Shown here: positions 10,132-10,809 of the stretch, in pieces
How positions within the stretch are numbered: position 1 is the first letter of the stretch
How the letters are laid out: every line of letters begins with the position of its first letter
Origin: a virus
Taxonomy: Duplodnaviria; Heunggongvirae; Uroviricota; Caudoviricetes
Length of the DNA stretch: 12,048 bases
Virus record (IMG/VR): IMGVR_UViG_2534682338_000009
Span: 1 to 12,048 of that record
Strand: one strand, 5' to 3'
The notes under the pieces: generated by a model
What the model was told of the DNA's origin: nothing
Databases searched by the model: none
The model's input: the letters and a program-made list of their open reading frames with translations, nothing else
Made by a program: the position numbers and the translations under genes

Positions 10132-10809
10132 TTAAAATTCTTTTCTTGAATCGAATCCACTTACAATTGTGTAGTCTATAAGAGAATTATTTGCCTCGTT
10201 AATTCGAATTTTAGCACCTTTATAAGCGACAACTTTTGTTCCTTCAGAAAGGTCAAAAGTAAAATCTGTTGTATATGCAGATCTCGCCATATTATTAGAG
10301 AATTCACGATATGTGAATTTTAATGTGTTGCCTGACTTTCCATTATACTCTATCGTCTTTACAAATGAATCACTAACCATACATAATCCATTTGGTACAT
10401 ACTGTATTGAAATTTCACTCGAATTGTATGTTGTACCATTAGGCGGTGATATTGTATTTTTTGCTTTATCATATGTTACATAGTTTACTGAGTTAACAAC
10501 TACTCCATATAAGTTCTTAAGCCCAACTGAATTCTTATCAATCGGATTTGCATAAACATTGTTTCCGGTATGGCAGTATGTCCCTTCTTTAATTTCTGAT
10601 AGTGATCCTGACGCGTTACCAAGTTTAAGCAATTCAGTTTTATATCCAGTAGCTGACCTTATAATGGGATCCCCCATGTATGCTTTGTTAGTTGTACCAA
10701 CCATTGGTTCTACATATTCTTGAGTTGTGACTTTTGGAGCAACACTACCCGGAGCACAGCCAGATAATAATGTGGCACCTAAAACAATCAGAGGTATATT
10801 ATTTTTCAT
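10132..10809 (-). CDS. Hypothetical lipoprotein (signal peptidase II lipobox LLSGC; Ala at +2 suggests outer-membrane sorting)
   Basis: 225-aa ORF with ATG at 10807-10809 and AAGGAA 9 nt upstream. N-terminus MKNNIPLIVLGATLLSGCAPGS has a canonical lipobox with Cys18. Mature part is Asn/Tyr/Thr-rich and likely beta-rich. No family recognised. Confidence 0.7.
   Translation of the reverse strand: MKNNIPLIVLGATLLSGCAPGSVAPKVTTQEYVEPMVGTTNKAYMGDPIIRSATGYKTELLKLGNASGSLSEIKEGTYCHTGNNVYANPIDKNSVGLKNLYGVVVNSVNYVTYDKAKNTISPPNGTTYNSSEISIQYVPNGLCMVSDSFVKTIEYNGKSGNTLKFTYREFSNNMARSAYTTDFTFDLSEGTKVVAYKGAKIRINEANNSLIDYTIVSGFDSRKEF

What the first reader, a model, noticed from the sequence alone, without database searches (positions are those of the whole stretch)
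10132..10809. Prophage lipoprotein much larger than known Cor, Llp or Bor exclusion lipoproteins
Canonical lipobox with Ala at +2 (outer-membrane sorting in enterobacteria) and its own candidate promoter. Phage lipoproteins in this genomic position (lambda Bor, phi80 Cor, T5 Llp) mediate serum resistance or receptor blocking. At 225 aa with no obvious similarity to them, this may be a distinct exclusion factor, or it may work together with the downstream membrane protein.
Basis: partly seen in the sequence, partly recalled or inferred. Interest (0 to 1): 0.5.

Follow-up and report, generated by a model that had tools for sequence, protein, structure and literature searches.

The report
Stand-alone prophage outer-membrane lipoprotein, function unknown
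This is a real, well-conserved gene for a cell-envelope lipoprotein that travels as single-gene cargo on phages and genomic islands; it belongs to a very large protein family that nobody has characterised, so a phage-blocking role is plausible but unproven.

Summary
The ORF exists exactly as described, on the minus strand (10132-10809): 225 aa, signal peptide, lipobox LSGC, Ala at +2. It is a genuine gene. dN/dS is 0.03-0.12 against ~95% identical copies. The lipobox Cys is near-invariant, and Asp never occurs at +2 in the family.

It has no detectable sequence or fold relationship to Cor, Llp, Rtp45, Bor or TraT. It is not an orphan either: it matches phrog_1353 full-length (unknown function). 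An exhaustive profile search finds 3,426 cluster representatives, reaching Gammaproteobacteria, Flavobacteria, Treponema and Nitrospirales. None of 135 sampled members is in Pfam, NCBIfam or PADLOC. A confident AlphaFold model (pLDDT 86, all-beta) matches no solved or viral structure.

The gene behaves as a self-contained moron: low GC, a promoter-like site and a strong terminator hairpin. It rides on P2-like prophages (right after dinI, beside the defence hotspot), on siphophage tail modules, and on small islands including an IS-flanked E. coli restriction-gene island. No neighbouring gene is conserved. The downstream membrane ORF is truncated here and lost elsewhere, so partnership is not supported.

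Best reading: a stand-alone, envelope-acting accessory lipoprotein, possibly excluding phages. The function is inferred, not shown. Interest is moderate.

The parts
10132..10809 (-). Coding sequence of the 225-aa prolipoprotein. The mature part is 208 aa, 22.7 kDa, pI 8.3, with Cys at 18, 79 and 143.
   Evidence: ORF list. phrog_1353 full-length match, E = 1.8e-66. dN/dS 0.03-0.12. AlphaFold model pLDDT 86, all-beta. Protein properties.
10756..10809 (-). Signal peptide with lipobox (residues 1-18: MKNNIPLIVLGATLLSGC). Cys18 is the lipidated residue, with Ala at +2.
   Evidence: Direct reading. Cys18 is conserved in at least 90% of family members. A lipobox is present in 55 of 63 members, and +2 is A/V/S/T/K/I/N, never D.
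10820..10824 (-). Ribosome-binding site AAGGA, 10 nt upstream of the ATG.
   Evidence: Direct reading of the sequence.
10848..10876 (-). Sigma-70 promoter-like site: TTAACA-17-TAAGAT, preceded by TG.
   Evidence: Consensus scan. It lies within the 95%-conserved mobile block. The count of such sites is not above chance in this AT-rich region.
10093..10118 (-). Terminator-like hairpin directly after the stop codon: 9-bp stem with 5 G-C pairs. The T-tract is weak.
   Evidence: Scan. Fold at -17.2 kcal/mol, z = -3.84, with 0 of 200 shuffles as stable.
9509..10979 (.). Low-GC (30.5%) block shared at about 94-95% identity with other elements and with an E. coli chromosomal island. This is the unit that moves.
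   Evidence: blastn against L002 and L004-L006. GC values.
9473..10006 (-). Downstream multi-pass membrane ORF (177 aa), a C-terminally truncated version of a 232-aa protein. It is context, not a required partner.
   Evidence: tblastn shows homology to the 232-aa L004 protein ending at residue 166. It is cut at residue 212 in L002, absent in L003, and absent near all other family members. dN/dS 0.18-0.22.

Best explanation
What it is (shown). The feature is an intact, selectively maintained gene for a lipoprotein. An N-terminal signal peptide and lipobox are followed by a ~12-residue low-confidence tether and a 22.7-kDa all-beta body. It is a self-contained accessory ('moron') unit with low GC, its own RBS, a promoter-like site and a strong terminator hairpin. 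It sits in the accessory region of a small phage-like element of E. coli that a large serine recombinase has integrated next to msyB. It belongs to a very large, uncurated family (phrog_1353). The family is single-gene cargo on many mobile elements and also occurs in plain chromosomal settings in other phyla.

How it most likely works (inferred).
- The precursor is lipidated and cleaved by Lgt/LspA/Lnt. [quoted passage not shown]
- It then acts alone. Its strongly conserved C-terminal domain (residues ~135-220) carries invariant G157 and E169 and near-invariant Y155, Y167, R168, R176, D186, N208 and Y213. This domain would bind something common to diderm envelopes.
- The far more variable N-terminal half (16% against 40% identity across the family) would tune specificity.
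- For the host of a prophage or island, the pay-off would be protection of the envelope against an outside agent. Given where the gene rides, a superinfecting phage is the most plausible agent, blocked at adsorption or DNA entry.

Likelihoods. Identity and anatomy: at least 0.9. Stand-alone envelope-acting accessory role: about 0.6. Specifically anti-phage exclusion: about 0.3.
For: Gene reality and sorting:
- ORF, lipobox and Ala at +2.
- Near-invariant Cys18, and no Asp at +2 in 55 lipobox-bearing members.
- dN/dS 0.03-0.12.
- Confident all-beta model with a low-pLDDT tether.

Moron character:
- GC is 34% for the gene and 30.5% for the block, against 39% for the head genes.
- Promoter-like site and strong hairpin.
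- A 1.47-kb block at ~95% identity is shared between different elements and an IS-flanked E. coli island.

Stand-alone behaviour:
- No conserved neighbour across 24 loci.
- The downstream gene is truncated or lost while the lipoprotein stays intact.

Association with mobile elements and defence genes:
- Fels-2, RE2010 and 24 Klebsiella phage records carry ~57% identical homologs.
- In Fels-2 and two E. coli P2-like prophages the gene sits right after dinI. It borders the gene A to portal Q hotspot, whose cargo differs each time. That hotspot is an established reservoir of defence systems (PMC9122126 and PMC9519451).
- An OLD nuclease lies ~2 kb away in the window.
- The E. coli island copy lies beside type I restriction, DUF262 and DprA/RecQ genes.
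- The Klebsiella island copy lies near a gene with a weak AbiC-family hit.
- In the Acinetobacter phage it sits beside a DUF4258 gene and an HTH gene, which I read as toxin-antitoxin-like.

Conserved C-terminal domain against variable N-terminal half.
Against: - There is no functional evidence of any kind. No paper names any member.
- PADLOC has no model matching this protein or 135 relatives.
- Very strong purifying selection and a motif conserved across phyla are unusual for a factor in an arms race with phage receptor-binding proteins.
- In marine and host-associated bacteria the neighbours are mostly ordinary chromosomal genes.
- In P2-like prophages the gene is the constant flank of the hotspot, not one of the exchangeable cassettes.
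- The promoter call is not above chance.
- Outer-membrane sorting is inferred from the enterobacterial +2 rule, not shown.
Confidence: 0.45

Rival explanations
1. It protects the envelope against a non-phage threat. Examples are an inhibitor of lysozyme or another peptidoglycan hydrolase, an orphan immunity protein against a periplasm-acting T6SS or bacteriocin toxin, or a Bor/TraT-like serum-resistance factor. In this reading it is a lysogenic-conversion fitness gene, not a phage-exclusion gene.
For: - The family is broad, patchy, single-gene and carries a periplasmic or lipoprotein signal. From my own knowledge this resembles the MliC/PliG/Ivy lysozyme inhibitors and orphan immunity genes.
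- The C-terminal motif, with invariant Glu and near-invariant Arg, Tyr and Asp, is conserved across phyla. That points to a universal ligand rather than a taxon-specific phage receptor.
- Many carriers are host-associated: E. coli, Salmonella, Klebsiella, Yersinia, Moraxella, Acinetobacter, Treponema, and Nitrospirales MAGs and Parendozoicomonas, which I take to be sponge-associated.
- Purifying selection is strong.
Against: - No cognate toxin or effector gene is adjacent in any of 24 loci. The only Tlde1-domain gene seen lies ~7 kb away in one locus.
- There is no fold similarity to known inhibitor or immunity families in the PDB.
- There is no Pfam hit to any family, which would include the Bor and TraT models.
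Confidence: 0.25
2. It is a classical receptor clamp of the Cor/Llp/Rtp45 type. It would bind the periplasmic face of the outer-membrane receptor used by its own phage and allosterically close the phage-binding site.
For: - It is an outer-membrane-directed lipoprotein encoded by temperate phage-like elements.
- In the Acinetobacter and Moraxella siphophages the homolog lies inside the tail module, within a few kb of tail-fibre or tail genes.
- This mechanism is established for Llp-FhuA and Rtp45-LptDE (PMC9586334, PMC12685063).
Against: - It is three to four times larger than those ~6-kDa proteins.
- The PDB, which includes the Llp and Rtp45 complexes, gives no sequence or fold match.
- It is not adjacent to the receptor-binding or tail-fibre gene in this element.
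- Nearly identical alleles sit in unrelated carriers (P2-like myophages, this element, IS-flanked islands) that are unlikely to share one receptor.
- Family members occur in phyla and chromosomal contexts with no phage nearby.
Confidence: 0.12
3. It is a general envelope lipoprotein with a cell-physiological role, such as envelope assembly, a stress response or binding of a polymer. Mobile elements would have picked it up and carry it with little or no benefit related to phage or host defence.
For: - The family has 3,426 representatives at 50% clustering. Nearly all of the 150 best listed are uniform single-domain proteins of about 205-250 aa.
- Neighbours in non-enteric genomes are mainly ordinary chromosomal genes.
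- dN/dS is very low.
Against: - Distribution is patchy. The strict-motif scan found only 15 loci among 185,579 species genomes.
- The Fels-2-type allele occurs in 50 of 5,426 complete E. coli genomes, and the window allele in none of them in full.
- In enterics it is always on prophages or islands.
- Intact alleles are retained while flanking genes decay, which argues for a selected benefit.
Confidence: 0.15
4. It is a two-gene system: the lipoprotein works with the downstream multi-pass membrane protein.
For: The two genes are adjacent and co-oriented within the same ~95% identical mobile block in the window, in L004-L006 and in E. coli PSS-10.
Against: - The membrane ORF is truncated at residue 166 of 232 in the window, cut at residue 212 in PSS-10 next to an IS630-family element, and absent from the IS1-flanked copy in strain 210221272. 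The lipoprotein ORF stays intact in all three.
- A strong hairpin separates the genes.
- No homolog of the membrane protein lies near any other family member.
- Selection on it is weaker, with dN/dS about 0.2.
Confidence: 0.04

Closest known systems
phrog_1353 (PHROGs v4, unknown function). Members include Fels-2 STM2726, E. coli HS EcHS_A0921, and homologs in Klebsiella P2-like prophages, Acinetobacter Vieuvirus phages and Moraxella phage Mcat28.
   Same: Full-length HMM match at E = 1.8e-66. Same length, lipobox and C-terminal motif. All 135 sampled relatives match it.
   Different: Nothing structural differs; the window protein is a member. The family has no assigned function and no Pfam, NCBIfam or PADLOC model.
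Superinfection-exclusion lipoproteins Llp (T5), Cor (T1, phi80) and Rtp45 (Rtp)
   Same: These are phage-encoded lipoproteins directed to the periplasmic face of the outer membrane. Llp has a disulphide, and this protein has two non-lipid Cys residues (79 and 143). A protective role for the carrier is plausible in both cases.
   Different: - Rtp45 is ~6 kDa and Llp and Cor are described as small; this protein is 22.7 kDa and all-beta.
- Llp is encoded next to T5's receptor-binding protein gene, which is not the case here.
- Llp and Rtp45 each clamp one specific receptor (FhuA and LptDE). Here there is no sequence or fold similarity to them.
- This family spans several phyla.
Lambda Bor / Iss and plasmid TraT (serum-resistance and surface-exclusion lipoproteins)
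   Same: These are outer-membrane lipoproteins carried by mobile elements and expressed from the resident element. TraT is of similar size (~240-aa precursor; from my own knowledge).
   Different: No Pfam family is matched at E <= 0.1, although from my own knowledge Pfam holds Bor and TraT models. Bor is under 100 aa. There is no evidence for serum resistance or conjugation exclusion.
Single-gene cargo of the P2 gene A to portal Q hotspot (old, tin and the systems of Rousset 2022 and Vassallo 2022)
   Same: Homologs lie in that interval in Fels-2 and in E. coli P2-like prophages. In the window the gene lies ~2 kb from an OLD-family nuclease.
   Different: It is the constant gene next to dinI rather than one of the swapped cassettes. 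It is exported rather than cytoplasmic. It matches no PADLOC model, and PADLOC 2.0 includes the PD-T4, PD-lambda and PD-T7 systems (my own knowledge).

Membership tests
Bacterial lipoproteins (Lgt/LspA/Lnt substrates) | N-terminal signal peptide ending in a lipobox [LVI][ASTVI][GAS]C | tested here: met
   The N-terminus is MKNNIPLIVLGATLLSGC. Cys18 is conserved in at least 90% of members. A lipobox is present in 55 of 63 members.
Bacterial lipoproteins (Lgt/LspA/Lnt substrates) | Lipid modification and LspA (globomycin-sensitive) cleavage; outer-membrane localisation | not testable with these tools
   Only the +2 rule can be applied. Here +2 is Ala, and Asp never occurs at +2 in the family.
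phrog_1353 | Significant full-length match to the family HMM | tested here: met
   E = 1.8e-66, residues 2-220 against profile positions 2-227 of 230. All 135 relatives match.
Cor / Llp / Rtp45 exclusion lipoproteins | Small (~6-8 kDa) mature lipoprotein | tested here: not met
   The mature part is 208 aa and 22.7 kDa. Rtp45 is ~6 kDa, and Llp and Cor are described as small.
Cor / Llp / Rtp45 exclusion lipoproteins | Sequence or fold similarity to Llp, Cor or Rtp45 | tested here: not met
Cor / Llp / Rtp45 exclusion lipoproteins | Gene adjacent to the phage's receptor-binding protein gene | tested here: not met
   In this element the Peptidase_S74 tail-fibre-like gene is more than 10 kb away, beyond the head genes. 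In the Acinetobacter and Moraxella phages the homolog is in the tail module but not next to a tail-fibre gene.
Cor / Llp / Rtp45 exclusion lipoproteins | Blocks adsorption by binding the outer-membrane receptor | not testable with these tools
   This needs adsorption assays and pull-downs.
Lambda Bor / Iss | Match to the Bor family model; ~97-aa precursor | tested here: not met
   There are no Pfam hits at E <= 0.1, and the protein is 225 aa. That Pfam holds a Bor model is from my own knowledge.
TraT | Match to the TraT family model | tested here: not met
   There are no Pfam or NCBIfam hits. Only the size is similar. That Pfam holds a TraT model is from my own knowledge.
Known or candidate anti-phage defence systems (PADLOC-DB 2.0) | Match to any defence-protein model | tested here: not met
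   The protein matches 0 families. Among 135 relatives there are only 4 isolated weak hits.
Phage moron (autonomous accessory gene) | Own promoter and terminator, deviant base composition, and presence in otherwise unrelated carriers | tested here: met
   Strong hairpin. GC 30.5-34% against 39%. The same block occurs in different elements and in an IS-flanked island. The promoter-like site is present but not above chance.
Two-component lipoprotein plus membrane-protein system | Conserved co-occurrence of both genes | tested here: not met
   The partner is truncated or lost in close relatives and absent elsewhere.

The most novel reading that the evidence does not exclude
The phrog_1353 family is a new class of large, stand-alone outer-membrane lipoprotein with a previously unseen beta fold. 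Prophages, phage-like elements and islands across several phyla would deploy it to make the cell envelope refractory to superinfecting phages or other envelope-attacking agents. It would act by binding a universal envelope component through its conserved C-terminal domain, a mechanism unlike the small receptor clamps Cor, Llp and Rtp45.
Probability: 0.2. Interest if true: 0.65.

Novelty: new member of a known kind. Interest (0 to 1): 0.35.

Why it matters
Accessory lipoproteins on prophages repeatedly turn out to change what can attack a bacterium: phage exclusion by Cor, Llp and Rtp45, and serum resistance by Bor and TraT.

This one belongs to a family of thousands of sequences that no curated database describes and whose predicted fold matches nothing solved. 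In E. coli and Salmonella it sits at the edge of the best-known prophage defence hotspot.

It is present in tractable laboratory strains: E. coli ATCC 8739, E. coli HS and Salmonella LT2 (Fels-2). A deletion or expression experiment would therefore be cheap, and it would assign a function to a large 'dark' family.

If it proved to be an envelope-level defence with a universal target, it would widen the known repertoire of exclusion mechanisms. If not, it remains an ordinary hypothetical moron.

Tried and rejected
- Family libraries. Pfam, NCBIfam and PADLOC scans of the protein and of 135 relatives found no family.
- KwaB similarity. A weak PDB sequence hit to Kiwa KwaB (E = 0.035) vanished with the broader profile. 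Only signal-peptide matches were left, so I rejected it as chance.
- Vassallo 2022. I suspected PD-T7-4 (661 nt) might be this family. The supplement shows it is a Zn-finger-HEPN protein. The 'lipoprotein' system mentioned there is another gene, and no PADLOC model matches here.
- Literature. Searches by locus tag and accession (STM2726, EcHS_A0921, WP_000700647, phrog_1353 and others) found nothing relevant. The Fels-2 cross-linking paper concerns STM2699.
- Conserved-neighbour search. The only cross-phylum link (Pseudoalteromonas and Nitrospirales) is the housekeeping ybbA-tesA pair at variable distance, which I rejected as a partner.
- Genome scan. The narrower A3 worked but recovers only loci containing the exact motif patterns.
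Full report
**1. The observation**

The ORF is real and sits at the stated coordinates, on the minus strand (ATG 10809, stop 10132; 225 aa).
- Its N-terminus, MKNNIPLIVLGATLLSGC|APGS, is a textbook lipoprotein signal peptide with lipobox L-S-G-C and Ala at +2.
- An AAGGA ribosome-binding site lies 10 nt upstream of the ATG (10820-10824).
- A sigma-70-like site (TTAACA-17-TAAGAT, preceded by TG) lies at 10876-10848. Such sites are not enriched in this AT-rich region (20 found against 15.8 +/- 4.7 expected), so the 'own promoter' is only a candidate.
- A hairpin starts 14 nt after the stop (10118-10093). 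It folds at -17.2 kcal/mol, z = -3.84, and no shuffle out of 200 folds as well.
- The mature protein is 208 aa, 22.7 kDa, pI 8.3, with two non-lipid cysteines at positions 79 and 143.

**2. It is a functional gene, not a chance ORF**

- Against four copies that are ~95% identical in DNA (L004, L005 and E. coli L002, L003), the gene shows 18-20 synonymous and only 2-9 non-synonymous differences. That gives dN/dS of 0.03-0.12.
- In an alignment of 47 homologs, the lipobox Cys is conserved in at least 90% of sequences.
- The C-terminal ~70 residues carry a striking motif: IEYNGKSG..LKFTYREF..MAR..FTTDF..GYKGA..I.Y.
- A lipobox is present in 55 of 63 family members. The +2 residue is A, V, S, T, K, I or N and never Asp. 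By the enterobacterial +2 rule this predicts Lol-dependent sorting to the outer membrane. This step is inferred.

**3. What family it belongs to**

- Pfam, NCBIfam and PADLOC give no hit at E <= 0.1.
- PHROGs gives a full-length match to phrog_1353, which has unknown function (E = 1.8e-66).
- tblastn against phage genomes finds ~57% identical homologs in Fels-2 (STM2726), Salmonella phage RE2010 and 24 Klebsiella phage records. It finds ~30% identical homologs in Acinetobacter Vieuvirus phages and Moraxella phage Mcat28.
- A word-indexed search of 5.8 billion proteins returned 62 relatives. Every one that carries a name is called 'hypothetical protein'.
- The exhaustive HMM search of 1.84 billion cluster representatives returned 3,426 at E <= 1e-3, 2,504 at E <= 1e-10 and 498 at E <= 1e-30. 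Nearly all of the 150 best listed are single-domain proteins of about 205-250 aa.
- None of 135 sampled representatives matches a Pfam or NCBIfam family beyond the lipid-attachment site. All 135 match phrog_1353, and none matches a defence model meaningfully.
- A motif-based scan of species-representative genomes recovered members in Pseudoalteromonas, Psychromonas, Parendozoicomonas, Pleionea, Nitrospirales MAGs, Treponema, Flavobacterium and Paenimyroides.
- So the protein is not an orphan. It is a member of a very large, uncurated family.

**4. Structure**

- AlphaFold2 with the 47-sequence alignment gives a confident all-beta model: mean pLDDT 86, pTM 0.64, and 17 strands. Confidence is low only for the signal peptide, the ~12-residue tether after Cys18 and the last three residues.
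- Foldseek against the PDB and against BFVD gives nothing at E <= 1e-3. The AFDB libraries were not available.
- Profile searches of PDB sequences give only chance or signal-peptide matches. A weak KwaB hit with alignment A1 disappeared with A2.
- The PDB copy includes the FhuA-Llp and LptDE-Rtp45 complexes. The absence of any match is therefore a real negative test for membership of those families.
- Across the broad family the N-terminal half is far more variable than the C-terminal domain: 16% against 40% mean identity to the window protein.
- G46, G157 and E169 are invariant. Y155, Y167, R168, R176, D186, N208 and Y213 are near-invariant.

**5. Genomic setting in the window**

- The window is 100% identical to E. 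coli assembly GCA_000190855.1. The flanking mdoH gene is 100% identical to K-12-type strains.
- The gene lies in the accessory region of a small phage-like element that a large serine recombinase has integrated next to msyB.
- The gene order in the element is: recombinase; a few small genes; the lipoprotein; the truncated membrane ORF; a 125-aa secreted ORF; an OLD-family nuclease on the opposite strand; TerS; GpA-type TerL; portal; a protease-capsid fusion; two small genes; and a 1,211-aa Peptidase_S74 protein that I read as tail-fibre-like.
- The gene is 34% GC, against 39% for the head genes.

**6. It moves on its own**

- A 1.47-kb block (window 9509-10979, 30.5% GC) is ~94-95% identical in a related element whose head genes are only 75% identical (L004-L006). 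It is also present in an element inserted at a different site next to modABC (L036). In addition it occurs in an IS-flanked island next to yecA in four complete E. coli genomes.
- Of the two yecA-island copies examined, one lies beside type I restriction and DUF262 genes and a fragment of a phosphorothioate-dependent restriction gene. The other lies beside DprA and RecQ genes.
- More distant alleles occur in other carriers:
  - an ~8-kb Klebsiella island with a serine recombinase and a gene with a weak AbiC-family hit;
  - a Brenneria element with AlpA and MobA;
  - beside IS elements in Methylotuvimicrobium;
  - as lone inserts in the tail modules of the Moraxella and Acinetobacter siphophages. 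In the Acinetobacter phage the insert is next to a DUF4258 gene and an HTH gene, which I read as toxin-antitoxin-like.
- In Fels-2, E. coli ATCC 8739 and NCTC9966 the homolog is always the first gene after dinI. The genes between it and portal Q differ completely each time.
- It therefore borders the gene A to portal Q hotspot, an established reservoir of anti-phage systems (PMC9122126, PMC9519451). It is not itself one of the swapped cassettes.
- The Fels-2-type allele is present in 50 of 5,426 complete E. coli genomes and is always annotated 'hypothetical protein'.

**7. No partner gene**

- An all-against-all comparison of neighbouring ORFs in 24 loci finds no gene that travels with the lipoprotein. 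The only exceptions are among near-identical Nitrospirales MAGs.
- The one cross-phylum link turned out to be the housekeeping ybbA-tesA pair, at variable distance.
Homology ends at residue 166 and is followed by 11 unrelated residues.
- In E. coli PSS-10 that gene stops at residue 212, next to an IS630-family element. In strain 210221272 it is missing from the IS1-flanked copy. The lipoprotein ORF is intact in all of these.
- Its dN/dS is higher, at 0.18-0.22, and the strong hairpin lies between the two genes. The two-gene idea is therefore not supported.

**8. How it most likely works**

- Shown: this is an exported, lipobox-bearing, selectively maintained, autonomous accessory gene on mobile elements.
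- The pattern of a conserved C-terminal domain and a variable N-terminal half suggests binding of a component common to diderm envelopes, or of a common envelope-attacking molecule, with lineage-specific tuning.
- The gene rides on prophages, phage-like elements and islands, beside OLD, restriction, AbiC-like and toxin-antitoxin-like genes. This makes protection of the lysogen the most plausible pay-off, with a superinfecting phage as the leading candidate agent (about 0.3).
- Protection from non-phage envelope attack, such as lysozyme or muramidase inhibition, orphan immunity or serum resistance, is nearly as likely (about 0.25).
- The very low dN/dS, the cross-phylum motif and the ordinary chromosomal contexts in marine bacteria argue against a Cor/Llp-style receptor-specific clamp (about 0.12).
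- Those same observations leave room for a general envelope role (about 0.15).

**9. Comparison with known systems**

- Functionally it may resemble exclusion or conversion lipoproteins, but it is not a member of any of those families.
- Llp, Cor and Rtp45 are small. Llp is encoded next to the receptor-binding protein gene, and Llp and Rtp45 clamp FhuA and LptDE respectively from the periplasm (PMC9586334, PMC12685063). This protein fails on size, gene position, sequence and fold.
- Bor and TraT models in Pfam are not matched. That Pfam holds those models is from my own knowledge.
- The 'lipoprotein' defence gene mentioned by Vassallo et al. is a different protein. PD-T7-4, which I suspected from its size, is a Zn-finger-HEPN protein.
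- No paper in the searchable library names any member of the family.

**10. Verdict**

It is a large, distinct, phage-borne outer-membrane lipoprotein, but the exclusion function is untested. The positional analogy and the proposed partnership with the membrane protein do not hold. The protein belongs to a widespread family rather than being unique.
- Novelty: it is a new (uncharacterised) member of a known kind, namely accessory lipoproteins carried by mobile elements.
- Interest is moderate (0.35). The family is large, unannotated, structurally unmatched and experimentally accessible in standard strains, but nothing yet shows an unusual mechanism.

Noticed in passing
window 1-190 and 166-1602 (-): In this strain the protease-capsid fusion gene is interrupted. 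The ORF ends at 166 (462-478 aa, against 618 aa in sister elements). Positions 92-190 are 100% identical to a 99-bp segment found in many Stx2 phages. In phage Nil2 that segment is annotated as a 'passively mobilized insertion similar to IS285'. The element is therefore probably defective here.
   Followed up: partly
window 6315-8135 (+): An OLD-family ATPase-Toprim nuclease lies on the opposite strand, ~2 kb from the lipoprotein: PADLOC Old E = 1.4e-74, with Pfam AAA_15 and OLD-like_TOPRIM. It is a known single-gene anti-phage system.
   Followed up: partly
window 8262-8326: A perfect 7-bp tandem repeat, (TACTCAT) x 9.3, lies just downstream of the OLD gene. Alignments to near-identical sister loci break exactly here, so copy number appears to vary between strains.
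   Followed up: no
window 11184-11218: A perfect 14-bp direct repeat, GACTTTGGATAATT x 2.5, lies in the long intergenic region between the 55-aa and 158-aa early genes. It may be an operator or iteron-like site.
   Followed up: no
window 8538-8915 (-): A 125-aa ORF has a type I signal peptide (MKKIVLALIFIVPSVLA) and no match in any library. It is a second exported accessory protein in the same region, present in most sister elements.
   Followed up: no
window 9473-10006 (-); L004 10806-11504: The multi-pass membrane ORF is truncated relative to a 232-aa protein whose C-terminal ~65 residues look soluble. An overlapping acidic 87-aa ORF (9235-9498) begins where homology ends, marking a recombination breakpoint at about 9509.
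   Followed up: yes
whole window; L036-L045: The carrier is a compact phage-like element integrated by a large serine recombinase next to msyB/mdoGH. Its early region is very small. It has lambda-type TerL and portal genes, a capsid fusion and a 1,211-aa Peptidase_S74 protein that I read as tail-fibre-like. None of 5,426 complete RefSeq E. coli genomes holds window 8000-12048 at 80% coverage or more, yet the exact lipoprotein is indexed in 314 collection blocks. Whether it is a full phage or a satellite was not resolved.
   Followed up: partly
L001 (Fels-2), L046 (E. coli ATCC 8739), L047 (NCTC9966): In P2-like prophages the lipoprotein homolog is the constant gene immediately after dinI. The cargo between it and portal Q is completely different in each: a 565-aa protein; three hypothetical proteins; or a 355-aa protein, a STAS-like protein and a 162-aa protein.
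   Followed up: partly
L026 and L027 (Nitrospirales MAG NPIRA04): Two separate contigs of the same MAG each carry a family member in near-identical neighbourhoods. This suggests paralogous copies or strain variants.
   Followed up: no
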